The notes beneath the pieces were generated by a model that searched no databases, was not told the DNA's origin, and saw only the letters and a list, made by a program, of their open reading frames with translations. This document shows positions 2,619-29,519 of a DNA stretch of 64,000 bases, in pieces. A program made the translations under genes and the position numbers. Numbering within the stretch: position 1 is the stretch's first letter; each line of letters opens with the position of its first letter. This DNA comes from a bacterium (lineage in GTDB: Bacteria > Patescibacteriota > Dojkabacteria > SC72): assembly GCA_021108295.1 (NCBI GenBank), contig JAIORF010000005.1, positions 8,531 to 72,530 on the forward strand, read 5' to 3'.

Positions 2619-5600
2619 CTACTCACAAAATACTTCTACCCCTAATCCACACAGTGCTTCTTTCATTGCATCATTCTCTGACTTAAGCATATCAATATCA
2701 GAATCATGACTATCTACTTGCTCAACTAGAGCAACAAACTCTTCATTTTCACTTAAATCACCCAAAGTCTCTATCTCTATCTGCTGTTCCTTGATAGCCT
2801 CAATCAAGATTGCCCCTATCCTAGCATATGATACTCCCCAATATTCTCCGTTAGTATCAACAATCTCTGGGAAATACCCCTCTACCTCTTGAGCAATTAC
2901 ACCAATCTCTGTATTGTCTGTTCCAATAAAGTTGTACCTCACTCCTCTCATACCAAGAACACTCTCCAAAGCATTATCAATAGTATCAACATTCTCTTTA
3001 AGACGAATATCTGAATTAGAAGTCCAAGAAGTTGCATCTTGGGCTATATAGACACCATTATCATCATCATCATCTGTGATATATAACCTATCAGAATTAT
3101 TACCATCATTGAAAATATTCCATTTCACAGTCCCACTTTCCGACAAGTTAATTTCCGCATCATTATTTAACCCTGTATCAATAGTTAAGACGGTATCACC
3201 TGAAGATTCAAGCTCTAAGATACTCACAGGTGCAAGTGCACCGATACCTACATTACCTCCCATAACACACATTGAACTTGTTTGATTACAAGTCCTTGGA
3301 GTAGCATCTAAACCAATAGCCACAATATGGGAGTTTGGTCCCGCGGTAATTGAATTTCCAATTGTAAATCCATAAAGTCCCGAAGCAGTTGTGCTATAAC
3401 CCGTTGCAGTTGCACCAGTCGCTGAAGCAGTTGTATCAAAACCCATTGCAGTTGATATCTGCCCTGAAGCTGTAGTAGCACGACCCATTGCAGTTGCATA
3501 ATCATTTGAAGCGGTTGTGTGAGCACCCATCGCAGTTGTATATAAATCTGAAGCAAGTGTATAAGAACCGAACGCTGTTGAAACAGATGCTGTAGCTCTT
3601 GTACTCTGACCTGTTGCAACTGACCAAGATCCTATATTAGCATCATTCCATTGAGTACCATCTACATCTCCTGCTCTAAAAGCTGCCTTCCTTGGATACC
3701 ACATCATTCTTACCCCTGATCCAAGATTTGGTTCTGTCCAACCAGAAACCAATGCTCCAGTAGCCAAAACAGATCCATCACCACTAAGTTCTAATGATGT
3801 CCTTGGAGTATTTGTATTAATACCAACATTATCTGTACTTGCATCTACAAAAAGCAGGTTTGCTTCTGTATCACCTTCAATTCTAAAATCAACATCCAAG
3901 CTGTATTCATTAATTACAACTGAATCACTGACCCCTTCTATAAGACTCAACATCCTCACTCCACCTGCCCTTATTTCAAGACTATCCTCATCTTCAAAAT
4001 CAATATATGTATCTAGATCAGTCCGACGAACAATCTGAGATCCAACATATAAAGATTTACCAATTTCAATATACTGATCAACATATAGAGATCCACTTCC
4101 AAAAATATGAGTTGGTGTTGCATCACCAACGATAACCTCTCCTCTACTTTTTATAGACATTCTAATATCACCTTTTGCTACTTCAGTTGAATCAGCATTA
4201 TTATCCGTAGCAAATATTAAATCACCTCTGCCATAAGTATCTGTTCTATTGAAAAATATACCTCCTTTTGCAGGACTTGTACCTAAATTCCCTGATACAG
4301 CAAACAACAATCCTGCTTCATCATCGTTACCCCCATCTGAATCATGAATAAGGATTCTTGCTTCATCATGATCTCCTGAGATTTGGAATTTATGAATTGG
4401 AGATGAAGTCCCAATTCCCAACCTATTATTGGTGTCATTCCAGAAAAGGTTTGCGTTATCCTGAGACAACAAACCACTTGCCCCAAAGAATGGCATAGAT
4501 CCTGTGGCCATATCTACTAGACTTAATGTTTCTCCTGTGTTGAGCAATAGATCATCACCAGATGTGGTCGGTGAAAGATTTGTACCAGTTTTTGTCCAAA
4601 CCGCAACACCTCCTACACTTGCCCAAGTTAATGTTCCACTACCATCTGTTTGCAGTACTTCACCATTAGCTCCATCTACAGTTGGAAAACTGTAAGTATT
4701 GTTAAATCTAACTACTCCACTCTCACCAATTGCCATTCTTATGATTCCACCATTCCTAAACGACAAGTCCCCTGAAAAGGCAGATTTTATAATATCCGAT
4801 TCTTTTGTACCAGAGATGAATTGCACCCGTGTATCATTATTGGTAGTACCACCATTTTCAATAGTTATTCCAGTATATCCCATATTAAGGGCATCATATA
4901 CATGGAGTTGGCTAGTAGGGCTGTTTGTCCCAATCCCTACCCTATCATTCCCAGCATCAACAAAGAACATATCGGTATTATCATCACTCTCTATTCTAAA
5001 GTCCTGATCCGTACTACTCTCATTAAAAACAATCTCACTCAAGGAGGCAGTTAGAATATCATTGGCTGTACTAAACCCATCATCTAATATTCGCAAGTGA
5101 ATTGCATCTGAATATGCCACTATATCAAAAGCTCTACTTCCAGAGGTATTACTTGTCGCATACCACTCAGACCTAGGGGAACTTCCACGAATATGAACCG
5201 CTCCTGCTGATCCATCTCCTTCTATGTATAAATTTCTACCAGAAATCCCCGTTTGAGTTGTAGATCCAATTAAAACATCATCCGAGGTATTAGTAGCATA
5301 CATCGTACCAGTACCAGCACCTGTCCAATCAGTATCTGAACCACCTGCTGTTGCCCAACTCAAAGCTCCAGTACCATCTGTTTGCAAAACCTGACCACTA
5401 GTACCATCAGTAGTTGGGAAAGTATAGGCACCATTAAATTGTACTGCTCCTGCTGAAGAGATATTTAATCGATATGCATTATTCACTCGGAAAAACATAG
5501 AATCTGTTCCATGATCATATCCCACCTGTCCAATGAGGTTGTTCTCAGGATCACCAAACACTATTCTACCCGAACCTGTGTTGGTAGTTAGTAGCGACAA

Positions 5601-8600
5601 GTAAGATTCATTACTATTCTCTATAGTTATATAACTGTGTGCAACTGGAGTAGCACCAGAGGCTCCAGCAAGAACATGAATCATGGTATTACTATGAGGG
5701 GCATTTGTACCTACTCCAACCTGACCGTGAGCATTAATTATAAATGGAGTAGTATCCGCACTCTGATCATTAACCACTAAACTATTACCACTCCCTAAGT
5801 TTGTAAATTGGTATGCGTTAGTTGTGGAATCAGAGTCTGTAGAAAATACTGCATTACCATCATTAGCTATTGTCAAAGAGTTTTGAAGAGCACCAAAAGC
5901 ACCACCTGTTTGGAAAACATAGTCACTCCCTTGCTGTACTAATTGAGAATATGTTGAAGTATTGAAATCCACTGAAGCCATAGTTCCCCGACCACCAGCT
6001 AAAGCATTTGTTCCCCCAATCACTATCCCATGTCCATCAGTATCAACTAATAAATAATTTCCTGACGCTGTAGCTGCCTGTGTATTTGAAAACCTTGCTA
6101 TTACATTATCTGTATTTACTTCATCTTCAGTAATGTATAGTCCATAGCCTGTACCAGAATGATTTATCTGCACACCATTCGGATTGTTTGTAGTATCGTT
6201 TTGATTTACTACTAAACCAACATTGTTAGAAGTATCTGAAACCGTTATCTCAACAGCTCCAGTATCAGCTGTGATTTGTCTTCCAACACCTGCACCACCA
6301 GAGTCGTAGGCTTGATCTAACGTTCCACTACCACTACCTGTTGCAAATGCAAGCCACCCAGTGTTAGTTCCACTTCCCGTATGTTTTATATACATATCCC
6401 CACCAGTTCCATCAATAGCTAAATCACCAATTGAACCAGTTACGGAACTTTCTGGTGTTGCGTCTGTTCTAAATATTTGGAAATCTCCTGCTGTGTTTTC
6501 TAGAGTTAGTATTGCTGATGTATTTACTGCATTGCTATCTATATGGAGTATTGTCGAGGGGGTAAGTATTCCAATACCGATATTCCCTCCATTAAAATAG
6601 GTATCTCCATTTCCATTAATTTTAACTGTATTTACATTATTATCTTTAATATTTAACGAATTTTCACTATTACCATTAACTTGAATAGATACAGCAACAT
6701 CACCACCTGCAGACTCATATACCTGAAGTGGATTCTCCCAAGCATCTATCGGGCTAATAAGCATCTGTCCAGTATTTATATGAATATTTCCACTGACTTC
6801 CAATACCTCTCCTGGAGTTGTTGTCCCTATTCCTAACCTGTTCGTAGTATCATTCCAAAACAGATTAGCATTATCCTCTACCACTTCACTACCTGAAGTA
6901 AAGAGAAGAGAACCAGCTGTATATGCTGCTGGAGTATCTGTAAGAGCCAAGAATGTGGAAGCTCCACTACCTGTTGCAAAAGATAACCACCCTGTATTAG
7001 TTCCACTTCCAGAATTCTTTATATACATCTCTCCACTACTACCATCTACTGCCAAGTCCCCTATCGATCCTGTTACAGAACTCTCCGGTGTTGCATCTGT
7101 TCTAAATACTTGGAAATCTCCTGCTGTGTTTTCTAGAGTTAAGATTGCTGCTGTGTTTGCTGCATTGCTATCTATGTGAAGTATTGATGAGGGGGCAATC
7201 GTTCCCATTCCTACTTCTCCACCCATAATACACATTGAATTAGCTTGATTGCATTGAAGAGTAGCCATATCATCTAAACCAATTGCCACAACATAATCTG
7301 CATCTGCGGTAATACGATGACCCATTGCAATAGAATGATTACCAGCAGCCCGCGCTACGTTACCTATTGCAATAGCATGCTCACCAACAGCCGTCACTGA
7401 TGTACCCATTGCAACGGAATAATCACCATTAGCAATTCCCCACCCTAACGCAACAGAATAACTCCCCTGGGCATCCGAATGAAAACCTAATGCGGTTGCT
7501 CCTACGTCAGTAGCGTATGCACCACCCCCTATCGCAACAGTATTAGATTCAGTAGCAAAAGCACCACCCCCTATTGCAACAGATGTACTTCCTGAAGCAA
7601 CTGATTCTTCTCCTGCTACGAATGAATAATCTCCTGAAGCAATATTATCAAGTCCGAATGCAACTGAATACTCACCGATATTTGCGTCATCCCAGTGATC
7701 GTCATCTACATATCCTGCTCTAAAGGCAGCTTTCCTTGGATACCACATCATTCTTGTTCCTGCTCCTAAGTTTGGTTCTACCCAACCTGAACCAAGTTCA
7801 CCAGTTGCTAGAATAGCTCCGTCACCACCCATAGCGCCATTACCAATATCTAATGCTACTCTTGGAGTTACATTTCCAATCCCAATATTATCTGTTAAAA
7901 CTTTCTGGTAAATATATCCATTTACACTATCTCTTTCCCATGGAGAAGCACTAGAAACTTGAACATCTACATATCCCTTATCCACCAAAGAACGATCTAT
8001 GAAGTGGGCAGAATAGTCAGCAGCGTAAAGAGCTCCTCTACTACTCAAAAGATCAGTGATTGTGATATTATCCCCTACTTCAAGACTAACTCTATTTGCA
8101 GGCCCTCCTGGATCATGATAAAGGAGATTTGAAACATGATTATAAACTATCCCAGAATCAATTAACCCATCAGTCATGTTAAATTCTACTTGATTTCCCC
8201 CTGTTCCAGAAATCAATCTATTCTCAGATATTGTTCCATCGTCTGTGTAGATATTGCTCGTGGTAGCACTAGTAGCAACCTGCACCCAACCAATGTTAGT
8301 GCCAGTACCAGAATTCTTTATATACATCTCTCCACTACTACCATCTACTGCCAAGTCCCCTATCGATCCTGTTACAGAACTCTCCGGTGTTGCATCTGTT
8401 CTAAATACTTGGAAATCTCCTGCTGTGTTTTCTAGAGTTAAGATTGCTGCTGTGTTTACTACGTTGCTATCTACATGAAGTATTGTTGAAGGGGCAATTG
8501 TTCCCATTCCTACTTCTCCACCCATAATACACATTGAATTTGCTTGGTTACACTGAAGTCCCATCATATTATCTAAACCAATAGCTACAACATAATCTGC

Positions 8601-11135
8601 ATTTGTATTAATACGATGACCCATTGCAATAGAATAATCACCATCAGCATACGCGCTTCGACCCATTGCAATTGAGTAATTACCAACAGCCCACGGATTC
8701 ATTCCTAACGCAAGAGCATAATCCCCAGAACCCCGTGCACCTGAACCTATTCCAACTGCTTCAATTCCAAGACCCCGTGCCTGAGACCCAATTGCAATAG
8801 CACCAAATGAAGTAGAACTTGCTCCTGACCCTATTGCAACAGAAACAGTTCCTGAAGCAACTGTTTCCTCTCCTGCTGCGAATGAATAATCTCCTGAAGC
8901 AATTGAATCAAGTCCGAATGCAACGGAAAAATCACCAATATTTGCATCATCCCATTGATCATCTTCTACATGCCCAGCTCTAAAAGCTGCTTTCCTTGGA
9001 TACCACATCATTCTTGTTCCTGCTCCTAAGTTTGGTTCTATCCAACCTGAACCATATTCACCAGTTGCTAAAATAGCTCCGTCACCACCCATAGCACCAT
9101 TACCAATATCTAAAGCTACTCTTGGAGTTACATTTCCAATCCCAATATTATCTGTTAAAACTTTTTGATAAATATATCCATTTACACTATCTCTTTCCCA
9201 AGGTGAAGCACTAGAAACTTGAACATCTACATACCCCTTATCCACCAAAGAACGATCTGCAAAATTGGCAGAGTAATCACCTGAATATACTACTCCGACT
9301 TGTGCTGCTCCAACCCTATCATCAGTAAATCTAAATGAATTTGTACTATCATCTAAATGGAAACTAAAATTAGGAGCATCAAAAGAAAAGTCTCTTCCAG
9401 CTTTAACTTCATACTTAACAGAACCACCATCATCATCTATTTCATAAGAAGGCATATTCATAAAGAAAGAATTACCACCTCCAACTTGATTATCAAGTGC
9501 TCCCTGCCATGTTAATGCACCAACATGATCATCAACATACTCTTTATCAACAAGCGATCTGTCTACAAAATTAGCAGAATAATCTTTATCATAAGTAGCA
9601 CCCTGAAATGATGTATCTCCTGTATATATTTCCATTAACCCTGTTTCCAACCTAAGAGATGTTTCATTTGCTCCTCCTCCAACAGTATTTCCTTTTAATG
9701 ACAAAACTCCTGCATTATTACCTACAACCATTGCCGCTTGGAATGTTGCATTATTCTGTGCATACATCTGAAAGAAAGATGGCTCTATATCAAATCGACT
9801 CCTACTTGCACCACTATCAACAATTATTGCAGAAGTATCTTCATTTATTTCATAAGTAACCCAATTATTCAGTATATGCAAACTATTACCATTAGCATTA
9901 ACAGTTCTAGCACCTGTCAATGTACCATCAGCATTATAGATATTCACCACCCCACCAGTTATTGCATCATCCACATACTCTTTATCAACCAAAGACCTGT
10001 CTGTAAATCCTGTAGCATAATCAGCCGCATATTCAAATCCCTTGGTTATAGCTCTGTTATCTGTAATGATTGAATCTACATTATTAACATCTATATCAAA
10101 ATTAGAAGTAGTATTAGTCACATACCAGAATAGTGAATCCTGATGCCCTATTTCAAATTGACCAGCACCAGATGCTGCAAGCTTTAATATTGCTCCATCA
10201 TATTCTATTTCAGCATCTGTTCCATAAAAGCCATATGCACCCAAATTATTAAACCATAAGTGATTTCCATTACCATCAATACTTCTAACTCCTGTCAATG
10301 TACCGTCAGCAGTATAAATATTATCCACTGCTAAGGTCGAACTATCTACCCAATCAGTTCCACCTACAGTTGAGACCAGAACTTGCCCTGCTGTTCCAGC
10401 ATCATCACTAGTATCAAAAAACGCCCCTTCTAATCTCATATCATCTGCAATGTGAAGTGATACTGTAGGAACTGACACCCCCACTCCTACATTTCCATTA
10501 TTAAGTATCACAAAAGATGTTGTTCCATTATTCTGTACCTCAAACAGACTACCCGTACCTATCTGATTAATAATTAGGGCTGGAGTCACATCATTAGAAG
10601 TCATCTGTACATTACCTGCTGAGTTAAACACTACATTACCTGAGTTCTCTGTCTGTATATTCACATCCTCACTATCACCAAACAAGCCTCCTGCTGTATG
10701 TGCGTAGGGATTACTAGAAAGAGGAATTCTTGGTGTTGCCTCTCCATCTGCTCCTACCTTTACTCCTATGTAGTACTCATCTGTGAAGTCCATATATGCA
10801 GGGAAGGAAACACAAGTACCTAATCTCTGTCCAAAGATACCCTCTGCATCTGGATCTATCTGCATACAATTACCTACTACTTGATCATATGTTTCTGTCC
10901 AAAGAAGGGGGCCTGTAGAAGATGGTATATCACTAGGTGCTCCAGTACTGATATTATTGTAGATTGAGAACTGTATGGTGGTAGGGTCTGCAATTGGTGT
11001 TCCTACATTGTCTTTAAGTTTACCTTGGTAGTTAAGATTTTCTGGGATTGCAGCTTGCACTTGGATGGTAAAAAGAAGCAGAAAAGCACATACGAGTAGG
11101 AGTATTCTTTTTTTAGATGAGGGCAGATTATCCAT
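2619..11135 (-). CDS. Giant secreted modular fibre/adhesin-like protein (2838 aa). Signal peptide, Hep_Hag-like heptad runs, repeated modules, and a C-terminal intramolecular-chaperone (Peptidase_S74-like) domain.
   Basis: N-terminus MDNLPSSKKRILLLVCAFLLLFTIQVQA is a signal peptide. Runs of S-x-A-x-G heptads (e.g. YSFAAGEETVASGTVSVAIGSGAS) each end in CNQANSMCIMGGEVGMG. The TILHIDSNAVNTAAILTLENTAGDFQVFRTDATPESSVTGSIGDL module occurs three times. C-terminus is ...SDIRLKENVDTIDNALESVLGMRGVRYNFIG...GVIAQEVEGYFPEIV..., matching the tail-fibre/endosialidase chaperone domain. Confidence 0.85.
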   Translation of the reverse strand: MDNLPSSKKRILLLVCAFLLLFTIQVQAAIPENLNYQGKLKDNVGTPIADPTTIQFSIYNNISTGAPSDIPSSTGPLLWTETYDQVVGNCMQIDPDAEGIFGQRLGTCVSFPAYMDFTDEYYIGVKVGADGEATPRIPLSSNPYAHTAGGLFGDSEDVNIQTENSGNVVFNSAGNVQMTSNDVTPALIINQIGTGSLFEVQNNGTTSFVILNNGNVGVGVSVPTVSLHIADDMRLEGAFFDTSDDAGTAGQVLVSTVGGTDWVDSSTLAVDNIYTADGTLTGVRSIDGNGNHLWFNNLGAYGFYGTDAEIEYDGAILKLAASGAGQFEIGHQDSLFWYVTNTTSNFDIDVNNVDSIITDNRAITKGFEYAADYATGFTDRSLVDKEYVDDAITGGVVNIYNADGTLTGARTVNANGNSLHILNNWVTYEINEDTSAIIVDSGASRSRFDIEPSFFQMYAQNNATFQAAMVVGNNAGVLSLKGNTVGGGANETSLRLETGLMEIYTGDTSFQGATYDKDYSANFVDRSLVDKEYVDDHVGALTWQGALDNQVGGGNSFFMNMPSYEIDDDGGSVKYEVKAGRDFSFDAPNFSFHLDDSTNSFRFTDDRVGAAQVGVVYSGDYSANFADRSLVDKGYVDVQVSSASPWERDSVNGYIYQKVLTDNIGIGNVTPRVALDIGNGAMGGDGAILATGEYGSGWIEPNLGAGTRMMWYPRKAAFRAGHVEDDQWDDANIGDFSVAFGLDSIASGDYSFAAGEETVASGTVSVAIGSGASSTSFGAIAIGSQARGLGIEAVGIGSGARGSGDYALALGMNPWAVGNYSIAMGRSAYADGDYSIAMGHRINTNADYVVAIGLDNMMGLQCNQANSMCIMGGEVGMGTIAPSTILHVDSNVVNTAAILTLENTAGDFQVFRTDATPESSVTGSIGDLAVDGSSGEMYIKNSGTGTNIGWVQVATSATTSNIYTDDGTISENRLISGTGGNQVEFNMTDGLIDSGIVYNHVSNLLYHDPGGPANRVSLEVGDNITITDLLSSRGALYAADYSAHFIDRSLVDKGYVDVQVSSASPWERDSVNGYIYQKVLTDNIGIGNVTPRVALDIGNGAMGGDGAILATGELGSGWVEPNLGAGTRMMWYPRKAAFRAGYVDDDHWDDANIGEYSVAFGLDNIASGDYSFVAGEESVASGSTSVAIGGGAFATESNTVAIGGGAYATDVGATALGFHSDAQGSYSVALGWGIANGDYSVAMGTSVTAVGEHAIAIGNVARAAGNHSIAMGHRITADADYVVAIGLDDMATLQCNQANSMCIMGGEVGMGTIAPSSILHIDSNAANTAAILTLENTAGDFQVFRTDATPESSVTGSIGDLAVDGSSGEMYIKNSGSGTNTGWLSFATGSGASTFLALTDTPAAYTAGSLLFTSGSEVVEDNANLFWNDTTNRLGIGTTTPGEVLEVSGNIHINTGQMLISPIDAWENPLQVYESAGGDVAVSIQVNGNSENSLNIKDNNVNTVKINGNGDTYFNGGNIGIGILTPSTILHIDSNAVNTSAILTLENTAGDFQIFRTDATPESSVTGSIGDLAIDGTGGDMYIKHTGSGTNTGWLAFATGSGSGTLDQAYDSGGAGVGRQITADTGAVEITVSDTSNNVGLVVNQNDTTNNPNGVQINHSGTGYGLYITEDEVNTDNVIARFSNTQAATASGNYLLVDTDGHGIVIGGTNALAGGRGTMASVDFNTSTYSQLVQQGSDYVFQTGGAFGALQNSLTIANDGNAVFSTDSDSTTNAYQFTNLGSGNSLVVNDQSADTTPFIINAHGQVGVGTNAPHSNTMIHVLAGASGATPVAHSYITIENSNESYLSLLTTNTGSGRIVFGDPENNLIGQVGYDHGTDSMFFRVNNAYRLNISSAGAVQFNGAYTFPTTDGTSGQVLQTDGTGALSWATAGGSDTDWTGAGTGTMYATNTSDDVLIGSTTQTGISGRNLYIEGDGSAGAVHIRGSSPRSEWYATSNTSGSRAFDIVAYSDAIHLRILDDGFSTANDILTASLSEIVFNESSTDQDFRIESDDNTDMFFVDAGNDRVGIGTNSPTSQLHVYDALNMGYTGITIENGGTTNNDTRVQFISGTKESDIIKSAFSGDLSFRNGGIIRMAIGESGVVRFNNTYSFPTVDGANGEVLQTDGSGTLTWASVGGVAVWTKTGTNLSPTTSGDDLLLNTGETLSLVDMATGSMPFFGASGLLSQDNANLFWNDTNNRLGIGTSSPIHKFQISGDHDEARILIHDSDGGNDDEAGLLFAVSGNLGTSPAKGGIFFNRTDTYGRGDLIFATDNNADSTEVAKGDIRMSIKSRGEVIVGDATPTHIFGSGSLYVDQYIEIGKSLYVGSQIVRRTDLDTYIDFEDEDSLEIRAGGVRMLSLIEGVSDSVVINEYSLDVDFRIEGDTEANLLFVDASTDNVGINTNTPRTSLELSGDGSVLATGALVSGWTEPNLGSGVRMMWYPRKAAFRAGDVDGTQWNDANIGSWSVATGQSTRATASVSTAFGSYTLASDLYTTAMGAHTTASNDYATAMGRATTASGQISTAMGFDTTASATGATATGYSTTASGLYGFTIGNSITAGPNSHIVAIGLDATPRTCNQTSSMCVMGGNVGIGALAPVSILELESSGDTVLTIDTGLNNDAEINLSESGTVKWNIFNDGNNSDRLYITDDDDDNGVYIAQDATSWTSNSDIRLKENVDTIDNALESVLGMRGVRYNFIGTDNTEIGVIAQEVEGYFPEIVDTNGEYWGVSYARIGAILIEAIKEQQIEIETLGDLSENEEFVALVEQVDSHDSDIDMLKSENDAMKEALCGLGVEVFCE
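7010..7270. repeat. Direct DNA repeat, about 97% identical to 8310..8570. Part of a roughly 1.26-1.30 kb tandem duplication unit inside the giant gene. A second pair is 7725..7998 versus 8987..9258, and a more diverged third copy lies near 6360..6600.
   Basis: Long near-identical strings seen directly, e.g. ...ctttatatacatctctccactactaccatctactgccaagtcccctatcgatcctgttacagaactctccggtgttgcatctgttctaaatacttggaaatctcctgctgtgttttctagagttaagattgctgctgtgttt... at both places. Confidence 0.8.
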
Positions 11136-11290: not shown

Positions 11291-14200
11291 CTACTCCTCA
11301 CACCAACTATATGAGTCGTCCTTTGTACAAAGTTCATCCTCCAACACACCAAGCTGATCTTCTATATCACTTACTTGTTCGAATAGTGCCATAAAGTCTT
11401 CATTCTTACTTAAATCACCTAAAGTCTCTATCTCTATCTGTTGCTCTTGTACTGCGTTAATAAGAGGTACTATAAAGGTTGAGTAACTTAAAGAGTAGAA
11501 GTCGTCTTCACTCTGTGGTTTGTTCAATCCACTAAACTCAACACCTTCAAGCGCTGCTTCTACCTCTTGTGCAATAAGGCCGGTATACTCTATGCCCTCC
11601 TGTCCTTCTGCTTTGTAATTAAAAGTGACAGGGTTTAGCTTGTTGATAAACTCAAGACCTAGGACACTCTCCTCTATATTCTCTTTCAAGCGTCTGTCTG
11701 ATGGGTAAGACCATGCTACTTGCCCTTCAATAGCGGTAACAGAACCATTACCAATCCTCACCTTGTTACTTGCGTTAACAGTAGTAGTATCTCCAATAGC
11801 TGTAGCGTTTGTCAGATTAGCGGTACTTACATTTGCTTGATTTCCAATTGCAGTATTGCTAGAGCCAGTGGTGTTTGTATTGAGAGCGCTACGACCAACA
11901 GCAGTATTGTAATTCCCCGTGGTAGTACCAAAAAGAGCATTACGACCGTCAGCTACATTTCCTATTCCTGAAGTGTTACTGTAAAGAGCATTATGTCCAG
12001 TTGCTGTATTTCCAGTTGCTACATTAGAATAAAGAGCGTTGTATCCACTGGCTGTATTATATTGTCCTGTGCTATTGGTATAAAGCGAGCCATCACCAAT
12101 AGCTGTATTATAATTCCCTGTAGTATTGGTGTAGAGAGCATCATGACCAAGTGCTGAGTTCCTACTTCCTGAGGAAGTAGATAAAAGTGAACTATCACCA
12201 ATAGAGGTATTGTATTGCCCAGTATTATTCGCTGCGGTAGGGCTTCCTCTTAATGCCTCATAACCAACCGCAGTATTATAGGTATCTCTACCAGTTGCCC
12301 TGTTATCTGCATAAAACATTGCATTAGATCCCATTGCTGTACTTCTGCTATTAGCTATATTGTAGTAAAGAGCACGATAGCCACTAGCCGTATTATGACT
12401 TCCTGCAACATTAGAACGAAGAGCAGTGAACCCCATAACAGTATTGTAATCCCCTGTGGTATTATCAGTAAGAGAATAGGCACCAGTAGTTGTATTATAA
12501 CTCCCAACAGTGTTGTCAACGAAGGCGCTATAACCATTAGCCGTATTACGATTTCCTATAGTATTAGCACTTCCTACCTCAATACCTACAAAAGTATTAT
12601 AATATCCTTCGTGAGGATTTACATGAGAAAGGTTCGTTCCACCATTTCCAACAACCAAAGATCCAGTAAACCCATCTTCTGCTTGAGCGTTGTAAAGAGT
12701 TTGTTCTCCATCTATCTTTATTGCCTGCGATATATCAATATCTCCACCACTCTCTATCTTAAGTCTCTCTACATCGTTTGTAAGGAAGCTCAATGCAAAA
12801 GCATCTGTATTACCCAATGTCCTGTCTGCTCCTCCTGCTTCTCCTCCATCTGAATAGTCTCCACCACTACCACCAGTAGCAAACTGTGTCCAGCCGGTAT
12901 TAGTTCCACTACCACTCGTTTTAAGATACATAGTCCCATTATTACTATCCACCACCAAATCACCTACCGAACCAGTCACTGTACTCTCTGGAGTTGTATC
13001 TGTCCTAAATATTTGGAAATTACCAGCACTATTCTCTAATGTTAACATTGCAACTGTATTAGCTGCATTGGAATCAACATGCAAAGTAGAACTTGGTGAA
13101 ACTATCCCTATACCAACCATCCCAGTATCTCCCTGTGGGAATATTAAAAACCTACTATTCGCTGGTGCGAAGGTTTGTCCTCCATCATCATATCCCCAAA
13201 TAAAGGTTCCATCACCTGAACTTGCCCTCATATTCCTACCACCAGTAAACGAAGACCTTCCAGCTGCATACGAATCCTGTCCAATAGCTGTTGAAATTGT
13301 TCCAGAAGCAATCGTTCCCCAACCCAATGCCGTTGAACTTTCTCCAGAAGCTGTTGTGTCATAACCCAGCGCTGTTGACCTTACTCCAGAAGCCGTTGTA
13401 TCACGACCCATTGCCAATGCATACTCTCCTGATGCAGTTGTACCATATCCAAAAGCCATTGCCTGTTGAGCCGAAGCTAAGGTCCCCATACCTATCGCCG
13501 TAGAATAATCTGCCGAAGCAGTTGAAGAATATCCTATCGCTGTTGAAGAAGTACCTGAAGCGTCTGTAAGACGGCCTAGTGCTGTTGCATAATTCCCTGG
13601 TGCAGTCGCGTTCCAACCAAAAGCCATTGAAATACTCCCCACATTAACATTATCCCACTGAGTACCATCTACCATTCCAGCTCTGAAAGAGCCCTCAGAC
13701 TTATCAAAGAACATTCTATGATCATGATCTGTATTCCCATCATCTGCTAATTGACTAGACCCAAACACAAAATCGTCTGTAGCTAATGTACCAGGTGAAT
13801 TACTAGTCACATTAAGTGTAGTACTAAATGCTCCTCCACTCCCACCTGCCAACAAATCATTAGATGTTGAGCCGTCATAGAAGTATAGCTCTGTACCATT
13901 CCACCATAGATCTCCTGAATTTGGTGATGTTGGATCTATACCAGCGGATGTCTCTAATCTTAATTGTGAACTAGAGGCAGTAGTTGGAGCTAGATGAAGT
14001 AAGGCTGTAGGACTACCTGTTCCAATACCTACTTCTCCTCCCATAATACACAGGGAATTAGCTTGATTACATGTTCTGTAAGTACTATCTAAACCAATGG
14101 CTACAATATTAGAGTTTGTTCCTGCTGTAATCGACTGTCCAATTGAAGTTGTATAAAGCCCTGAAGCAACTGTTTGATAACCCATTGCTGTCGAATAGTT

Positions 14201-17200
14201 TGCTGAAGCTTCTGTTTCAAAACCCAATGCTGTTGAAGTCTCCCCTGAAGCGACTGTATTTTCACCCACTGCTATCGAATTCTCTCCTGTAGCCTCAGTG
14301 TTATAACCCATTGCTGTTGAATAGTCCCCAGAAGCTTCTGTACCATAACTCATTGCTATTGAATAACTCCCCGAAGCATCAGTATTACGCCCCATGGCTA
14401 CTGCATTTATTCCGGAAGCGATTGTATCACGACCAAATGCTGCTGAGTATACCCCAATATAAGCATCATCCCATTGAGTCCCCGTTACACGACCAGCTCT
14501 GAAAGAGCCCTTAGACTTATCAAAGAACATTCTATAATCATGATCTGTATTCCCATCATCTGCTAGTTGACTAGATCCAAAAACAAAATCGTCTGTAGCT
14601 AATGTACCCGGTGAATTACTAGTCACATTAAGTGTAGTACTGAATGCTCCTCCTCCTGAACCAAAAGCAACCCAACCAGTATTTGTAGCATCACCAGTGT
14701 TCTTGATATATAACACACCGTTAGTACCATCTACTGCTAAATCACCAACTGAACCTGTTATTGCAGATTCCGGTGTAGCATCTGCTCTAAACACCTGGAA
14801 GTCACCAGCAGTATTTTCTAAAGTTAATATTGCTGTTGTATTAGCAGAATTACTATCTGCATGCAATATACTGTCTGGATCTATAGTCCCAATTCCTACC
14901 TCTCCATCTGTTTCTATTCTCATACTCTCATTCAATGTTCCATCACTAGTAAAGAACTGTAGGTATCCATATGTAATACTAGTATGTATTGATCCAGTAA
15001 TTTTAGCACTCACCCTACCAGCTCCATTACTATTGTAAAACTCAATATTTGAAATAGCACCAGTTCCAGACTGGTTCCTACTTAATCGCAGTGTTGTGTC
15101 AGCTATACCCTCAACCTCAAGGAGAGTCCCCGGTGTGTTAGTACCTATCCCTATCCTATTGTTATCAACATCTGCAAAGAAAAGATAGGAATATGCATCA
15201 CCTTCAATACGGAAGTCTAAAGTACTTATTCCACCATCATTCCATGCAAATCCGGCAGTTCTAGTTAGTAACAGGACATCACGATAATTCCCAACATCAA
15301 ATCTAATTGTATCATCATCAATTCCTTCCTCTACTTGAATCCCTGTGTCTAAATCAGCATCCCAAATAGCATCTGAGGAACTTCCCCCACCTGCCAACAA
15401 ATCATTAGATGTTGAGCCATCGTAGAAGTATAGCTCTGTACCATTCCACCATAGATCTCCTGAGTTAGGAGTTGTTGGATCTGTACCCGCTGATGTTTCT
15501 AATCTAAATTGTGCTCTAGAAGTAGTAGTTGGAGCTAAGTGAAGTGAAGCTGTAGGAGCTACTGCCCCAATACCAACTTCTCCTCCCATAATACACAGGG
15601 AATTAGCTTGATTACATGTTCTTGCAGTACTATCTAAACCAATGGCTATAATATCGCCGTTTATTCCTGCAGTAATTGCCCTCCCTATTGCGGTTGTAGC
15701 TACCCCAGAAGCAGTTGTTTGATAACCTATTGCAGTTGATGCATTTCCTGAAGCTGTGGTACTCCAACCTATTGCAGTTGATCCCTGTCCCGAAGCCTCT
15801 GTCTCACGACCCATTGCAGTTGCATAGTCATTCGAAGCCAGTGTATATCCTCCCAGTGCCGTTGAATGAGCTCCCGAAGCAGTTGTTACCCAACCTAGAG
15901 CTGTGGATGTGTATGCCGAAGCAGTTGTGTCATAACCCATTGCAGTTGAATAGGTACCGACACTGCCGTCATCCCACTGAGTGCCAGACACACCCCCTGC
16001 TCTAAAAGCTGCCTTTCTTGGATACCACATCATTCTTGTTCCTGCTCCAAGATCTGGTTCTGTCCAACCTGCGCTATAAGTTCCTGTTGCTAAAATGGCT
16101 CCATCGCCACTAAGTTCTAGTGCTGTTCTAGGAGTTGCCGTTCCAATTCCTATATTATCAGTCAGAACTTTCTGATAAATATATCCATTTACACTATCTC
16201 TTTCCCATGGAGCAACACTAGAAACTAGAACATCTACATACCCCTTATCAACTAAAGAACGATCTACAAAATTAGTAGAATAGTCAGCAGAATATCGAAG
16301 CCCTAAACTACTATCCGTCCTAACTGTCCCAAAAGTAGAAGCATCTAATATTATAGAGGATATTCCTGTACCAGAACCTCCTTGATTATCATCCGACAAC
16401 ATCACAACACTTGATTGTGTAGCTCTAAAGTGATTAATTGTATTCCCAAGTGCCGCCGCACTTAATCTTGCATCTCCCATATTAAGATTCACCGCAGCAG
16501 AAACAGAAGAAGTGTCTGTTGAATCAAATCGAAGTGTATAGTCTCCAGAAACTTGTGTATTTTCTACCAATATCCCCCCTAACTGAATAGTTCCAGAGTC
16601 ATTTGTAAGTCCATTATTGGCAGGGACATTATTCACAATACCATCTACATACCCTTTATCAACTAAAGAACGATCTACAAAATTAGCAGAATAGTCAGCA
16701 CCATATTGGAACCCTGCAAAACTACCATAACTTGAAGTAATTGTTGTTATTTCATTACCAATATTAAAGTCTGTAGAAGTTCCTCCTCCACTTTGTTCTA
16801 TATGCATATTCCAATTAGTATCGTCCATCGATACATTGGAATAATAATTTTCAAAAGACACCTTATCATCAAAAGTTAATTGAATATTTGCATATTGTGT
16901 TCCCTGCAGTGTCAAATTATTTCCACCAGTATTGAGTGTTCTATCACCTGTCAAAGTTCCATTTACTGTATATATATTACTTATGGTAGAACCAGTTGCT
17001 ACCTGTACCCAACCAGTATTGGTTCCATCACCAGTGTCTTTAAGATAAAGTGCTCCACCAGTATTATCCATAAAGAGAGAACCCAACTGAGCAGTAACAA
17101 CACCCTCTGGTGTAGCATTACCCGTAAAGAAACCAACTGAGTCTGAATTGGTTGAATCAGTAAAACGAAGGAACTCTGTATTCTCAGCAGCCTCAATATC

Positions 17201-20200
17201 AAGATCTGCATCTGGTGAAGCAGCATTTATACCTATATTACCCGTAGAATCATCAATCCTCATAACTGCAGTACCATCTAATTTGAATACTAGTGAATTA
17301 GTACCAACAGCATCCATGAAGAACTCTTGTTCAACCTTATTTATACGAAGTATTCCCTGATTGACTCCAACATCTAAATAAACTGAAGCCGATGCAGGCA
17401 TAGGAACTGTTGAACCTGTTGTGATCCTAAACTCAGTATCAATATCAACACCATTTGAATCACCCTCTAAACTCATCCCAACATCCGTAGTTGTACCAGA
17501 CCCTCCAATCGTTACTAAACCATCACTGTCTATAGTCATCCTCTCTGTACCACCAGCATCAAACCGAATAATATCCTCATTTGGTAACTCCTCTACTTGA
17601 ATACCAGTATCACTATTCGCATCCCATATAGAGTTCACACCTGCTCCAGCACTTGCCCAAGTTAATGTTCCACTACCATCTGTTTGTAATACTTGTCCAT
17701 TTGTTCCATCTACCATAGGGAAGGTGTAAGCATCGTTAAATTGAATGGCTCCCGTTGCAGCAATTTCCATTCGTTCTGTCGCATTGGTACCTAACCGAAG
17801 AGGAAGAGCGTTGTATGTAGTAAGCGTCATATGTCCACTACCCAAAGAGAGTCCACCTCTAGAAGTTGGACCAGCTGACAACCACAAATCAGCATTTCCA
17901 TCTATAGTCCAATTGTTTTGAATCTCAAGTCCAAAGTTATTCGTATTAGCTACTCCATATAAATGCATGATTCTACTCCCACTTGGAGCTGCAGTTCCTA
18001 TTCCAATTTGACCAGTATCTGTTATAACCATTCTCTCACTACTATTTGTATCAAATCTAATAAAGTCCTCATCTCCTGTCTCTTCCACTTGAATACCAGT
18101 ATCTGAATCACCATCCCACATAGAAGTTTCCCCACCAACATTTGTCCAACTCAATGCTCCACTACCATCTGTAATTAGAGCCTGCCCACTTGTACCATCT
18201 ACAGTAGGAAAGGTGTAAGCACTATTAAAGGTAATCGCACCACTACCAGTAGCATTAGCAAGATGTATACGAGTAACTCCATTAGTCCTAATATCCAAAA
18301 CATGATTATCATTTGTACCTATAATCCCACCCTGTGAGAACATATTACCACCCTGTCTCCAAGCACTTGTTCCTCCACTAGCAATCTCTGTCCAAGCATC
18401 ATCCAATACCCCAGTCTTAATCCACAGATGAGTACCTACTACAGCCAATGAACCAAGAGGTGCTGGATAACCAGCTGTTGGTGTTTCATCAAGAGAAACA
18501 AGATCAAAGTAACTACCCAGTCCGTTTTGAATCCTCACCACCTGATGTGGATTGAGAGCCTGATTACTAACTATATGAAGCGGAACTGCTGGAGTAGTAG
18601 TACCAATACCAACCCTATCATCACTAGTAAGTCTCATAACTTCTGAACCATTAATATTGGAAATAATTGGAGAGGTGTCTGCAGTAAAAATATGCAATGC
18701 ATTATTAACCCATCCACTTGTATATCCAATACCAAACATATTCTTCACAATACCAGCATCCCCTGAACCACCACCATGCATAATCAAACCCTCTGCCATA
18801 TCAGTTCCACGAGTTTCAAAAAATGTATCATAACCATCACCCTCTATACCTATAACAAGATCTCCAACAGAACTCATAATCTGATCTCCACTACTGACAA
18901 TCAAATTCCCCATTGTGGTATTACTTGTTCCAATAGCTACATTACCATCTGATCCTATCCTCATTCTTTCAGTAGAATTAGTTTGAAAAGCAATATCAGT
19001 ATCAACTGCATACCCCCCTGTTCTTATTATAAACTCATTAGTTCCACCATCATACACAATTCCACCACCCTCACTCAATCCACCATCACCATTATAAAAA
19101 CTCAATATTGCATCATTAGCTACTCCATTTGCTTCGATAATTGCTGAAGTATTCCCAGCACCAGGACTCCTGACATGAAAATTCCCGTCTAATGATGCTG
19201 GTGATATACCCACACTAAGTCTCTGAGCTACATGTACATGCCCCCCCATTATCCATGTACGATCATTAACAGAATCAAAAGCAAGCCCTGCCATACTAGG
19301 ATCACTCCCCGCTAAATCAGACGGATTATCAATATTAAAGTAAGCACTTACATACCCCCCATCCATCCAATGCAACTCTCCAGTGTTACTAATAAACATT
19401 CTCTCTACTCCAAAAGTGTCAAAACGAATGAAATCCTCATCACCAACCTCCTCTACTTGAATACCCGTATCTATATCTCCATCCCAAAGAGAAGTTGCAC
19501 CACTACCAGTGGATATCCAACTCAAAGCTCCACTACCATCTGTTGCCAACACCTGATTGTTTGTACCATCTACATTAGGAAAACTGTAAGCATTTGCAAA
19601 TCGAATACTACCCTGTGTCCCTGCCCCACTTGCAACACCAGGTATTAAATTAATATTCCCAGAAGTACCATCTACTACACTCCCAGTTTCAATATTAAGA
19701 GCTGTAGTCCCTATCGCCCCTGTCTTATCTTTAGTTGTTAAATTCAAACCACCATCAGCTTCAATATCCAACACCCCATCCTGCTGATCAATTATCATAT
19801 CTCCATTGCTATTCTGTATTGTAAACACTCCAGAATTGACGTAGATAACACGCTCCATCGCTCCACCATCGAACATAAGCATAGCACCATCATCTATAGT
19901 CACATTATCACCACCAGTTGCAGTAGACAAAAGAGTACCAGTTCTAGACCAGAAAGAGGATCCAGCACTATTAACAGCATAGGTACCTACCGCATTCAAA
20001 GCATGAACAAGAGAAGTAGAAGTTTCTCCTAAACCTATGGTAGAACCTATAGCTCCCCCAGAGGCGTATATCTCTGCAAGACTGTTTAGTAAATCATCTC
20101 CTAGAGCACTCCCCGTCTGGGAGAGGTATAAACTTTCATTCACATCAGCAATCCTAACTGTTCCATTAGTCATCTGCATAATTGCCCCGGCTGTCTGAAA

Positions 20201-24788: not shown

Positions 24789-24948
24789 CTATACTTTCTT
24801 AAGTTTTGCTAACTAAATAGTAGTACACTATATACTGTATACAATACCACTAAACAGATACTAGACGCAAGAGAATATATACTAGGAAAGAATTTACGTA
24901 ACATCGCTCTGTTGGATAAAAAAGTTTATGGGAATTATCGAAGAATAT
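24789..24948 (-). promoter_or_regulatory. Twin copy of the conserved upstream/promoter block (see 11136..11290).
   Basis: Near-identical to 11136..11285. Confidence 0.4.
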
Positions 24949-28900: not shown

Positions 28901-29519
28901 AGTGCTGAGTGAGAACTACTGCATCTTGAAGTTTACCTGAGGAAATTGAACCATCAAGTATCTTTACTGTTGTTACACTTCCATTTGCTAGTTTCTCAGT
29001 TGTTACTGCACCATTTGCTAACTTCACTGTTATCACGCTTCCATCCTCTATCTCAGTTGAACCACCATCATCTGTTGTAGTCCCTTCTGCTTCTTCTAGC
29101 TTTACAATTCTATCTACAAACACCTTTGCTAACTTCTCCTCAGTAATACTCCCATCTTCAACCTCAATTTCAGTCGGTGCATATTCTGTTACTGTACCCT
29201 CTATTATCTCACCATCTGCTGTTTCTAACTGAAGATTCCCCGAAGGCATTCCATCTGCTATGTTTCCACTCACCATCTTTGCTGTAGTCGTAGTTCCATC
29301 TGGAAGCTCTATCTCTACCGAAGTAAACACATCTTCTGCCAGTTTGTCGTAGGAAATAGATCCTTCCTCTAACTCTCCTCCTCGGAGTTCTTCCAATTCA
29401 ACCTGTTGCTTACTATTGTGGATTACTTGAACAGTGGTAGCACCGACCAAGCCAACTGCCATAACTATTAGGAATACTACACTTGCGAAACCTTTGAAAT
29501 ATGATTTGTGATTGGGCAT
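25941..29519 (-). CDS. Large secreted/anchored modular fibre-like protein (1192 aa) with an N-terminal signal-anchor, 11-residue KIxDGxIxxxKL repeats, NTAxG fibre repeats and a C-terminal intramolecular-chaperone (S74-like) domain.
   Basis: MPNHKSYFKGFASVVFLIVMAVGLVGA. Repeats ITTEKLANGSVTTVKILDGSISSGKLQD.... Module TTFLGLTDTPSGYTAGSVLFTTGSTVTEANTNLFWDN shared with other giant genes. C-terminus SDRRLKENIEESVLGLEFINKLNPVTFNYKEGNTGTEYTGLIAQEVEAALEGVEF. DNA at 26170..26470 is about 90% identical to 11440..11740. Confidence 0.85.
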   Translation of the reverse strand: MPNHKSYFKGFASVVFLIVMAVGLVGATTVQVIHNSKQQVELEELRGGELEEGSISYDKLAEDVFTSVEIELPDGTTTTAKMVSGNIADGMPSGNLQLETADGEIIEGTVTEYAPTEIEVEDGSITEEKLAKVFVDRIVKLEEAEGTTTDDGGSTEIEDGSVITVKLANGAVTTEKLANGSVTTVKILDGSISSGKLQDAVVLTQHLGSSSVTSVKIKDGAITTSKLFDGVVTSLKIEDGTIANVDISDTASIAYSKLNLTSSILLGDIGQNGCASGEIMKWNGSAWACAIDTGGVGATTFLGLTDTPSGYTAGSVLFTTGSTVTEANTNLFWDNSSDRLGVGTNSPTAAIEVSAQNLGHALEVTANSDDSELEFYGFTYDAFLSVTNANSEAVIKFGSEAVVDQGWALIGRDAGENYRMDIASGVDVGHNNDIGSALMTFLQNGDVGIGTTSPNYPLHLSGVEGDGSLKIAITNTGGGREWSINSHNNGIFYISDQTAVANRLIIDTSGNVGIDTPVLPIYKLEVAGDVGINDYIYHNGDANTHTYFSPDRWQLFTGGRAMIDAQFSSSEIAINEGGTQTDFRVEGDNETHLFFTDGSTDRVGIGTATPNFRLEIVGSSSVIDRKIGINSTQVVYLPDQTSFTGSLVIGDGGTNLSHTAGADGQLNTFVGIGAGNANTTGYANTANGRGALYSNVSGYHNTATGLTALYNNNSGSFNTANGSESLENNTTGSRNTASGYFSLYSNTTGGYNTASGMYALNSNVANSRSTAMGYGAMYYADSRIAGRDTYNTAVGYEALRGSGTAANNTGQRNTAVGDSALYANTTGSYNTANGNDALRVNTTGYFNTANGVNSLYLNSTGGSNTANGVNALRNNVANSESTAVGYGAMYYADNRTSGQSTYNTAVGYEALRGSTTASANSGQRNTALGHSTLLVNSSGDSNVAVGWSALLANNSGSGNVAMGRYAMDTNTTGSNNTALGYEADVSTSGLTNATAIGNGATVNANNKVRIGDTNVSVIEGQVAWSNPSDRRLKENIEESVLGLEFINKLNPVTFNYKEGNTGTEYTGLIAQEVEAALEGVEFSGLNRPQSGDDFYSLSYSTFIVPLINAVQELDEKVNGFTDQTLSIEELGDSVASLEVRIDELGDLSEDEDFVALVERVSGIEDRLDEKDSEMNAMEQALCELGRVEFCEE

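What the first reader, a model, noticed from the sequence alone, without database searches (positions are those of the whole stretch)
6950..9560. Approximately 1.3-kb tandem duplication units inside the 2838-aa gene with 95-97% DNA identity; candidate repeat-number (length) variation
Blocks 7010-7270 and 8310-8570, and 7725-7998 and 8987-9258, are near-identical direct repeats one unit apart, with a more diverged third unit near 6360-6600. Each unit encodes a full module set: DRSLVDKGYVD...GWxEPNLGAGTRMMWYPRKAAFRAG...heptad run...CNQANSMCIMGG...TILHIDSNA...LENTAGDFQVFRTDATPESS. Long perfect direct repeats in-frame are substrates for RecA-mediated or slippage expansion and contraction. That would change fibre length in steps of about 430 aa without breaking the frame.
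Basis: seen in the sequence. Interest (0 to 1): 0.6.

Follow-up and report, generated by a model that had tools for sequence, protein, structure and literature searches.

The report
Duplicated head cassette in giant fibre gene
A giant secreted fibre gene of an uncultured Dojkabacteria-like (CPR) bacterium carries two roughly 1-kb copies, about 90% identical, of a cassette encoding an adhesin-type head domain. This is an old, partly re-homogenised internal duplication typical of modular fibre adhesins, and nothing available shows that the copy number changes.

Summary
The repeat is real but overstated. Gene 2619-11135 (minus strand, 2838 aa) holds two direct copies of a 0.96-1.0 kb cassette, at 8296-9258 and 6997-7998. 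They are separated by a 297-nt spacer that is not repeated. The two conserved blocks are 88.9% and 92.1% identical, at offsets of 1299 and 1260 nt, both multiples of 3. The longest perfect match is 150 nt. The middle of the cassette has diverged to about 45% amino-acid identity and carries a net 13-codon indel. The "third unit" is only a partial copy, the last module, at 80-83%.

Each cassette encodes a connector, a YadA-like beta-roll head and a beta-rich module. The protein has a signal peptide and a C-terminal S74 self-cleaving chaperone domain, and sits in a cluster of four paralogues that share these modules.

Flank dS of 0.24-0.30 means the copies are old. The 150-nt perfect tract indicates recent gene conversion. 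Unequal crossover would be in frame, but a second full-length assembly has the same two-unit layout and no close relatives exist for comparison. It is an ordinary feature, a new member of a known kind.

The parts
2619..11135 (-). Giant fibre gene (2838 aa): signal peptide, conserved N-terminal domain, connector-terminated modules, three YadA-like heads and a C-terminal S74 chaperone domain
   Evidence: ORF. Pfam YadA_head E 3.3e-27 and Peptidase_S74 E 2.9e-13. NCBI names it 'tail fiber domain-containing protein [bacterium]', MCD4811000.1.
11052..11135 (-). Probable Sec signal peptide (aa 1-28, MDNLPSSKKRILLLVCAFLLLFTIQVQA|A)
   Evidence: Read from the translation; no predictor was run. Homologues P0002-P0011 have equivalent hydrophobic N-termini.
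8280..9263 (-). Cassette copy 1 (aa 625-952): connector DRSLVDKGYVD, head start GWIEPNLGAGTRMMWYPRKAAFRAG, YadA-head repeats, head end CNQANSMCIMGG, and D module LENTAGDFQVFRTDATPESS. The high-identity DNA spans 8296-9258.
6981..8003 (-). Cassette copy 2 (aa 1045-1385), with the same module order as copy 1. The high-identity DNA spans 6997-7998.
   Evidence: The AF2 model has head pLDDT above 90. The best PDB fold matches are the YadA-like heads of BoaA (3s6l) and BpaC (7o23). Sequence matches to BpaC are E 1e-12 and to YadA 5e-8.
8004..8279 (-). Spacer module between the two copies (aa 953-1044). It has no high-identity counterpart and ends in the shared connector motif.
   Evidence: A phmmer search with the spacer finds only itself plus one weak match, E 0.0014.
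7009..7158 (-). 150-nt tract identical to 8308-8457 (D module): inferred recent gene-conversion tract and the best crossover substrate
   Evidence: Permutation gives 0 of 20000 over all sites and 2 of 20000 at synonymous sites.
8308..8457 (-). Partner of the 150-nt perfect tract, in copy 1
7317..7580 (-). Diverged centre of the copy 2 head (aa 1186-1273, 14-residue YadA-head repeats). It is 13 codons longer than the centre of copy 1.
   Evidence: 43-47% amino-acid identity to copy 1, dS 0.71, dN 0.48.
8616..8840 (-). Diverged centre of the copy 1 head (aa 766-840)
6351..6701 (-). Partial third copy (aa 1479-1595): the D module plus a short stretch of the head end, 80-83% DNA identity to copies 1 and 2
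3174..3872 (-). Third, diverged head (aa 2422-2654; no connector, no D module) immediately upstream of the S74 domain
2859..3014 (-). Peptidase_S74 intramolecular chaperone domain (aa 2708-2759)
11291..22051 (-). Adjacent 3586-aa paralogue carrying the same head and D modules in a different order and number, with its own internal repeats (13841-14210 vs 15386-15755 at 84.6%)
22056..24788 (-). 910-aa paralogue with one head and one D module. Its 5' end plus upstream region is 90.9% identical to that of the 2838-aa gene.
25941..29519 (-). 1192-aa paralogue with an S74 domain. Its 3' region is 84% identical to that of the 3586-aa gene.

Best explanation
The two repeats are an old internal segmental duplication of one roughly 330-aa cassette in a modular giant fibre gene. 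The cassette runs connector, YadA-like beta-roll head, then a beta-rich D module.

The protein is Sec-exported. By inference from its YadA-head and S74 domains, it trimerises and then cleaves off its C-terminal chaperone domain. It therefore displays three head domains in series along one fibre.

After the duplication the cassette edges stayed similar under purifying selection. At least one recent gene-conversion event left a 150-nt identical tract. The centre of the head diverged and gained or lost about one 14-residue repeat, so the two heads are now different proteins.

The same modules are shared and rearranged among the four adjacent paralogues. Cassette edges coincide with the recurring connector motif DYSxxFxDRSLVDKxYVD.

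Shown here: the repeat anatomy, the domain identities, the divergence pattern, and the same layout in independent assemblies. Inferred: trimeric state, adhesin role, gene conversion as the cause of the perfect tract, and an order of events in which duplication came before divergence.

Copy-number change by unequal crossover is mechanically possible, at plus or minus 433 or 420 aa in frame. I judge it a rare evolutionary event rather than a standing population-level length switch.
For: - Repeat anatomy and sharp cassette edges.
- Module map: the order A-B-C-D occurs twice in this gene. A partial head end with D, and A-B-C alone, occur elsewhere in it, and other combinations occur in the paralogues.
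- Head identity: Pfam YadA_head E 3e-27; PDB sequence hits to BpaC, YadA and BoaA; AF2 model with head pLDDT above 90, whose best folds are TAA YadA-like heads, TM-score 0.75 normalised to 3s6l.
- S74 domain.
- Age and heterogeneity of the copies (NG86): flanks dS 0.24 and 0.30, dN 0.055 and 0.073, omega about 0.23; centre dS 0.71, dN 0.48, omega 0.68.
- The 150-nt perfect tract is unexpected given the flanks: 0 of 20000 and 2 of 20000 permutations.
- The two copies are each other's closest relatives. The A and D modules are 92% identical between them, against 79-81% to the next closest copy.
- Same layout in other assemblies: P0030 is 2838 aa with 2836 of 2838 residues identical and no gaps. 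L008 is 99.963% identical over 24.6 kb with no gaps, running through unit 1 into unit 2.
- Family-level remodelling by cassette exchange: syntenic orthologues P0005 (1639 aa) and P0008 (2002 aa) have 97%-identical flanks over 9.2 kb but a rearranged, partly unrelated middle.
Against: - Only two full-length assemblies exist. They may come from the same or sister samples, since all fragments are 99.96-100% identical, so absence of variation is weakly sampled.
- Every other public assembly of this gene breaks inside it. That could hide alternative alleles.
- The elevated dS in the centre may be inflated by aligning non-orthologous 14-residue repeats.
- The perfect tract shows that the copies do recombine, which is also what the length-variation hypothesis needs.
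- Trimerisation, self-cleavage and adhesion are inferred from homology only.
Confidence: 0.68

Rival explanations
1. One reading: the cassette pair is an active length-variation device. RecA-mediated unequal crossover or slippage changes the unit number within the population, altering fibre length in steps of about 430 aa.
For: - The repeats are direct and in frame, at offsets of 1260 and 1299 nt.
- A 150-nt perfect tract shows recent exchange between the copies.
- Assemblies of this gene repeatedly break inside it.
- Related fibre genes differ in length between close relatives.
- Length variation by domain duplication and deletion is documented for the giant YadA-type adhesin BadA (PMC8859334).
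Against: - The copies are 8-11% diverged with dS of 0.24-0.30 and differentiated heads, so they have coexisted for a long time.
- Only two copies exist, with a unique spacer between them, rather than an array.
- Apart from the single 150-nt tract, perfect matches are 52 nt or shorter.
- The only second full-length assembly has the identical length.
- The variation between P0005 and P0008 is cassette replacement, not a change in unit count.
Confidence: 0.17
2. Mosaic origin without a local duplication. The two cassettes were acquired separately or overwritten by recombination with paralogous fibre genes acting as a cassette 'toolbox', and their similarity reflects conversion from a shared donor.
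For: - The same modules occur in the three neighbouring paralogues at 70-81% DNA identity.
- Long segments of 84-91% identity link other parts of the paralogues.
- The edges are sharp and coincide with the recurrent connector motif.
- The head centres are about as far from each other (43-47% amino-acid identity) as from the heads of the paralogues.
Against: - For both the A and D modules the two copies are each other's closest relatives: 92% against at most 81%.
- No donor closer than that exists in the window.
- dS in the head centre between the two copies (0.71) is still lower than against paralogue heads (1.0-1.65).
Confidence: 0.1
3. Assembly artefact: the duplication, or its copy number, was produced by mis-assembly of short reads.
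For: The source is a metagenome-assembled genome. The 150-nt identical tract is of the order of typical short-read lengths (my estimate; read lengths were not available). Other assemblies break within the gene.
Against: - The copies differ at about 80 positions and by a 39-nt indel, and the reading frame stays open for 2838 codons.
- An independent JGI/IMG contig gives the same 2838-aa product, differing at 2 residues.
- An ENA contig independently reproduces unit 1, the spacer and the first half of unit 2.
Confidence: 0.03

Closest known systems
Bartonella adhesin A (BadA) and its genomic island (trimeric autotransporter adhesin)
   Same: Both are giant fibre genes of roughly 3000-4400 aa built from repeated modules, with a homologous YadA-like head fold. 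In both, paralogous genes or pseudogenes nearby share the modules. [quoted passage not shown]
   Different: No YadA-type membrane-anchor domain was detected here. The C-terminus is instead a Peptidase_S74 self-cleaving chaperone domain. The repeated unit is a whole head cassette rather than a neck/stalk segment. There are two diverged copies rather than many. No strain-to-strain variation has been shown. The host is a Dojkabacteria-like CPR bacterium.
Periscope proteins (SasG, Rib, Aap and others)
   Different: The class is defined for monomeric single-chain proteins with arrays of highly identical tandem repeat domains, and it explicitly excludes trimeric YadA-type fibres. Here there are two copies of about 90% identity with a unique spacer, and the protein is presumably trimeric.
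Short bacterial 'tail fiber domain-containing proteins' (YadA_head plus Peptidase_S74, about 400-600 aa)
   Same: The head module of the cassette is homologous to these. The search returned 844 hits at E of 1e-8 or better, many carrying both YadA_head and S74 domains, from Bacteroidota, Omnitrophota, Chlorobiota and others. The C-terminal 420 aa of this protein (head 3 plus S74) has the same architecture.
   Different: Here the head is also used as an internal, duplicated cassette in a fibre about five times longer.
Phage tail fibres and tailspikes with a C-terminal S74 intramolecular chaperone (for example K1F endosialidase)
   Same: The same C-terminal Peptidase_S74 domain is present. From established knowledge, this domain assists trimer folding and is then cleaved off.
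   Different: This protein has a signal peptide and a chromosomal setting (dnaN, tmRNA, tRNAs). No phage structural genes lie nearby.

Membership tests
Trimeric autotransporter adhesin (TAA, type Vc secretion) | YadA-like head made of 14-residue left-handed beta-roll repeats | tested here: met
   Pfam PF05658 E 3.3e-27. PDB sequence hits to BpaC at 1e-12 and YadA at 5e-8. The AF2 model's best folds are 3s6l and 7o23.
Trimeric autotransporter adhesin (TAA, type Vc secretion) | C-terminal YadA-type beta-barrel membrane anchor | tested here: not met
   The Pfam scan of the whole protein reports only YadA_head and Peptidase_S74. NCBIfam YadA and BimA hits cover head residues only and fall far below their cut-offs. 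The C-terminus is an S74 domain.
Trimeric autotransporter adhesin (TAA, type Vc secretion) | Gram-negative outer membrane as the site of anchoring | not testable with these tools
   The organism appears to be a Dojkabacteria-like CPR bacterium. Its envelope type cannot be established from the sequence here.
Periscope proteins | Array of highly identical tandem repeat domains (near-identical DNA) | tested here: not met
   There are two copies at 89-92% identity with a diverged centre and a 297-nt unique spacer.
Periscope proteins | Repeat number varies between closely related strains or within a population | tested here: inconclusive
   Two full-length assemblies have the same length. No other close relative was found.
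Periscope proteins | Monomeric single-chain rod | not testable with these tools
   The YadA-head and S74 domains imply a trimer by homology. The class definition excludes TAAs.
S74-terminated trimeric fibre ('tail fiber domain-containing protein') | C-terminal Peptidase_S74 intramolecular chaperone domain | tested here: met
   PF13884 E 2.9e-13 at aa 2708-2759.
S74-terminated trimeric fibre ('tail fiber domain-containing protein') | Autoproteolytic release of the chaperone after trimer folding | not testable with these tools
   This needs protein biochemistry. Only the domain match is shown.
Diversity-generating retroelement target (considered because DGRs are common in CPR) | Template and variable repeat pair that differ at adenines of the template | tested here: not met
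   The 74 mismatches between the copies show no adenine bias. Bases at mismatched sites are T 29, A 20, G 13, C 12 in copy 1 and C 22, A 21, T 19, G 12 in copy 2. There are 42 transitions and 32 transversions.

The most novel reading that the evidence does not exclude
The four-gene cluster (2619-29519) may be a CPR counterpart of the Bartonella badA island. Under this reading it is a recombination 'toolbox' in which YadA-like head cassettes, bounded by the conserved connector motif DYSxxFxDRSLVDKxYVD, are duplicated, converted and swapped among paralogous S74-terminated giant fibres. That would diversify both the length and the binding specificity of the organelle an episymbiotic Dojkabacteria-like cell might use to attach to its host. 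The 8296-9258 / 6997-7998 pair would be the most recent product of that process and could still be polymorphic in copy number.
Probability: 0.25. Interest if true: 0.55.

Novelty: new member of a known kind. Interest (0 to 1): 0.27.

Why it matters
Internal module duplication with gene conversion is the normal way modular fibre adhesins evolve, so the repeat itself adds little. Its value is descriptive. It documents that an uncultured Dojkabacteria-like (CPR) bacterium builds giant secreted fibres from YadA-type heads capped by a phage-style S74 chaperone domain. It also shows that these genes evolve by exchanging cassettes at a conserved connector motif. If the fibres mediate attachment of the presumably episymbiotic cell to its host, head duplication followed by divergence would be a route to new binding specificities.

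Tried and rejected
1. Searches for close orthologues in which to count units all failed:
   - Whole-protein search of 5.8 billion clusters: the next best hit is 52% identical over 7% of the query.
   - GTDB representative genomes and JGI metagenome contigs: only 28-39% identical head domains.
   - IMG/VR viral contigs: 32-46% identity.
   - The nearest relative by FtsH (91%) has a contig holding only the last 253 aa of its fibre gene.
2. Exact-protein look-ups for the two giant genes of the window returned nothing. Look-ups through a neighbouring small ORF and through cluster members did work.
3. The first AF2 run, with 7 sequences, gave pLDDT 50 and was discarded. A 68-sequence alignment gave a usable head model. 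The D module stayed at low confidence (pLDDT about 50-76), so its fold is not assigned.
4. A DGR-type mutational signature was rejected.
5. A prophage origin for the 'tail fibre' cluster was rejected. No phage structural families lie nearby; the only phage-related hits are a Bro-N/anti-repressor-like gene, an acetyltransferase and a T4SS-type ATPase. The recombinase at 1293-2189 resembles XerC/XerD and is syntenic with housekeeping genes in a related species.
6. Positive selection on the head centre is not demonstrated. Omega is 0.68, below 1, and the alignment there is uncertain.
7. Literature searches for S74 fibres in CPR bacteria found nothing relevant.
Full report
**Observation**

The finding lies inside a single ORF, window 2619-11135 on the minus strand, 2838 aa. 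Self-blastn confirms two long direct repeats. The first is 7569-7998 vs 8829-9258: 92.1% over 430 nt, no gaps, E 1e-174. The second is 6997-7392 vs 8296-8691: 88.9% over 398 nt, E 4e-139. The offsets are 1260 nt (420 codons) and 1299 nt (433 codons), so both preserve the reading frame.

The partner coordinates are 1-2 nt off. The longest exact match is 150 nt (7009-7158 = 8308-8457), followed by 52, 50 and 41 nt. "Long perfect direct repeats" is therefore an overstatement.

Identity collapses from over 90% to 25-45% within about 60 nt at both outer edges. The 297 nt between the copies (7999-8295; protein aa 953-1044) has no high-identity partner. The object is a 0.96-1.0 kb cassette present twice with a unique spacer, not a 1.3-kb head-to-tail tandem. 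The cassette centre (7393-7568 / 8692-8828) is about 50-60% identical and has a net 13-codon indel. The "third unit" at about 6331-6572 is real, at 83% and 81% identity. It contains only the last module plus a short stretch of the head end (aa 1479-1595).

**What the cassette encodes**

Protein self-comparison and phmmer mapping divide the unit into four modules.
- A: the connector DYSxxFxDRSLVDKGYVD, a short linker and the head start GWxEPNLGAGTRMMWYPRKAAFRAG.
- B: 14-residue repeats.
- C: the head end, CNQANSMCIMGG.
- D: ...LENTAGDFQVFRTDATPESSVTGSIGDLAVDGSSGEMYIKNSG...

The unit matches solved YadA-like heads by sequence: BpaC 7o23 at 1e-12, YadA 1p9h at 5e-8, BoaA 3s6l at 7e-8. An AF2 model built on a 68-sequence alignment has pLDDT above 90 across the head. 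Its best PDB folds are the same TAA heads, with a TM-score of 0.75 normalised to 3s6l. The fold of module D was not resolved (pLDDT about 50-76).

**The whole protein and its surroundings**

The protein starts with a signal-peptide-like N-terminus (read) and ends in a Peptidase_S74 intramolecular chaperone domain (aa 2708-2759, E 2.9e-13). No TAA membrane anchor is detected.

It contains A-B-C-D at aa 625-951 and at 1045-1385. A partial head end plus D lies at 1479-1595. A diverged head without a connector lies at 2422-2654, just before the S74 domain. Head plus S74 is also the architecture of hundreds of short "tail fiber domain-containing proteins" in other phyla.

Three adjacent minus-strand paralogues, of 3586, 910 and 1192 aa, carry the same modules in other orders. 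They are linked by further repeats of 80-91% identity.

The window is chromosomal: it holds dnaN, a tmRNA, tRNAs, SpoU and ABC transporter genes. No phage structural genes lie near the cluster. All named close homologues of the FtsH gene encoded just beyond the window's low-coordinate end (read from overlapping contig L009) are Candidatus Dojkabacteria (66-75% identity). The fibre's own homologues include Patescibacteria and Nomurabacteria entries.

**History of the two copies**

For both the A and D modules the two copies are each other's closest relatives: 92% DNA identity, against at most 81% to any other copy. Divergence is uneven (NG86):

| Region | dS | dN | omega |
|---|---|---|---|
| N-side flank | 0.24 | 0.055 | 0.23 |
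| C-side flank | 0.30 | 0.073 | 0.24 |
| Head centre | 0.71 | 0.48 | 0.68 |

The head centres share only 43-47% amino-acid identity. That is about the same as their identity to heads in the paralogues, although dS against those heads is higher, at 1.0-1.65.

Inside the C-side flank lies the 150-nt tract with no differences at all. A run that long arose in 0 of 20000 permutations of all sites and in 2 of 20000 permutations of synonymous sites only.

I read this as an old duplication, since a dS of about 0.25-0.3 is not recent. The edges are under purifying selection and have been re-homogenised at least once by gene conversion. The head centre has differentiated. One caveat applies: the centre alignment may pair non-orthologous 14-residue repeats, which would inflate both dS and dN. 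Mismatches show no adenine bias, so a DGR is not involved.

**Test of the length-variation idea**

An unequal crossover in the 150-nt tract would remove or add exactly 1299 nt (433 aa). One in the A module would change 1260 nt (420 aa). Both are in frame, so the mechanism is possible. The data available do not show it happening.
- The protein cluster holds a second full-length sequence from a JGI/IMG contig of 12,427 bp. It is 2838 aa, with 2836 of 2838 residues identical and no gaps.
- An ENA contig (ERZ26872907 NODE_76) matches window 32051-7436 at 99.963% with no gaps. It independently reproduces unit 1, the spacer and the first half of unit 2 before ending.
- Six more contigs from Logan, ENA and JGI samples are 100% identical to the window. 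They all end inside the gene, at window 3087-6705, without reaching the cassettes.
- No more distant relative that could be compared exists in the protein database, GTDB representatives, JGI metagenome contigs or IMG/VR. The nearest relative by FtsH (91%) contributes only the last 253 aa of its fibre gene.

These assemblies also argue against an assembly artefact. So do the roughly 80 substitutions and the 39-nt indel that distinguish the copies.

**Family-level context**

Two syntenic orthologues from related MAGs differ in length: P0005 is 1639 aa (GCA_054011055.1) and P0008 is 2002 aa (GCA_054008515.1). Their downstream flank is 97.0% identical over 9.2 kb. Their fibre genes, however, have a reordered pair of blocks and an unrelated middle of 1.4 kb versus 2.2 kb. 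Fibre length does change between close relatives in this family, but by cassette replacement rather than by counting one repeat up and down. The connector motif recurs 3-6 times in each homologue, and both cassettes here start exactly at one. That fits the connector being a structural joint and a recombination boundary, which is an inference.

**Comparison with known systems**

The closest analogue is BadA and its genomic island in Bartonella henselae. There a giant YadA-type fibre gene is flanked by paralogous sequence that serves as a "toolbox". Domain duplications and deletions change fibre length in line with gene length (PMC8859334).

This protein works like that but is not a TAA. The head criterion is met and the membrane-anchor criterion is not. 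That class requires arrays of near-identical repeats in monomeric rods and explicitly excludes TAAs (PMC9704523). Neither requirement is met here.

**Verdict**

The mechanism is feasible, and gene conversion shows that the copies do interact. The copies are nonetheless old and differentiated, and the unit number is identical in the only other full-length assembly. This is an ordinary example of module duplication in a modular fibre adhesin, in an unusual host lineage. I rate it a new member of a known kind, with interest 0.27.

Noticed in passing
window 10480-11282 and 24132-24934: This is the longest repeat in the window: 805 nt at 90.9% identity. It covers about 147 nt upstream of the start codon plus the first ~218 codons of both the 2838-aa gene and the 910-aa paralogue. 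The two genes therefore share promoter region, signal peptide and N-terminal domain. The copies are direct repeats 13.65 kb apart.
   Followed up: partly
window 11445-11816 and 26185-26553: The 3' (S74-proximal) regions of the 3586-aa and 1192-aa paralogues are 84% identical over 373 nt. Similarly, 2715-2804 and 11372-11461 are 79-84% identical between the 3' ends of the 2838-aa and 3586-aa genes.
   Followed up: no
window 13637-15755 (inside the 3586-aa gene): The neighbouring giant gene has internal duplications of its own: 13841-14210 vs 15386-15755 at 84.6% (offset 1545), and 13637-13837 vs 14452-14653 at 90.1% (offset 815).
   Followed up: no
L006 2535-7454 and L007 10001-16009: These are syntenic fibre orthologues in two related MAGs, 1639 and 2002 aa. 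Their downstream flank is 97% identical over 9.2 kb, but the central modules are reordered and partly unrelated. This is a clear case of cassette remodelling between close relatives.
   Followed up: partly
window 1293-2189 (+): A XerC/XerD-like tyrosine recombinase sits about 430 nt from the 3' end of the fibre gene, close to tRNA-Met at 595-669. Its scores fall below the NCBIfam equivalog cut-offs. It is syntenic with DivIC, EF-P, FtsH and PolA in a related species, so it is probably housekeeping.
   Followed up: partly
window 24967-25806 (-): A Bro-N / anti-repressor-like gene lies between two fibre paralogues. It gives a full-length match to phrog_15286 (E 1e-97). It is one of the few genes tested in or near the cluster that match phage families; the others are an acetyltransferase and a T4SS-type ATPase.
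   Followed up: no
window 46038-48374 and 48424-50784 (-): Two tandem paralogous Laminin_G_3 (concanavalin-like lectin) proteins of 778 and 786 aa, both with TTG starts. They share DNA segments of 84% and 78% identity.
   Followed up: no
window 34570-34646 (-): ARAGORN predicts a tRNA-Ile with anticodon UAU. To my knowledge this is uncommon in bacteria, most of which decode AUA with a lysidine-modified CAU tRNA.
   Followed up: no
window 57912-58330 (-): ARAGORN predicts a long tmRNA of 419 nt with an unusually long 30-residue tag, VTNRLNAFVSGVADTVKTAFAAPVYAYQFA. The resume codon may be mis-assigned.
   Followed up: no
window 34680-37199 (-): A VirD4/TraG-like type IV secretion coupling ATPase (T4SS-DNA_transf and DUF87 domains). 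It lies downstream of tRNA-Ile and near genes for dockerin, Big_5 and CarboxypepD_reg surface proteins.
   Followed up: no
window 3087-7436 (contig ends of L008-L014): Seven independent public contigs of this organism all terminate inside the 2838-aa gene, at window 3087, 3186, 4310, 4645, 5179, 6705 and 7436. Short-read assemblies evidently have persistent trouble resolving this gene.
   Followed up: partly
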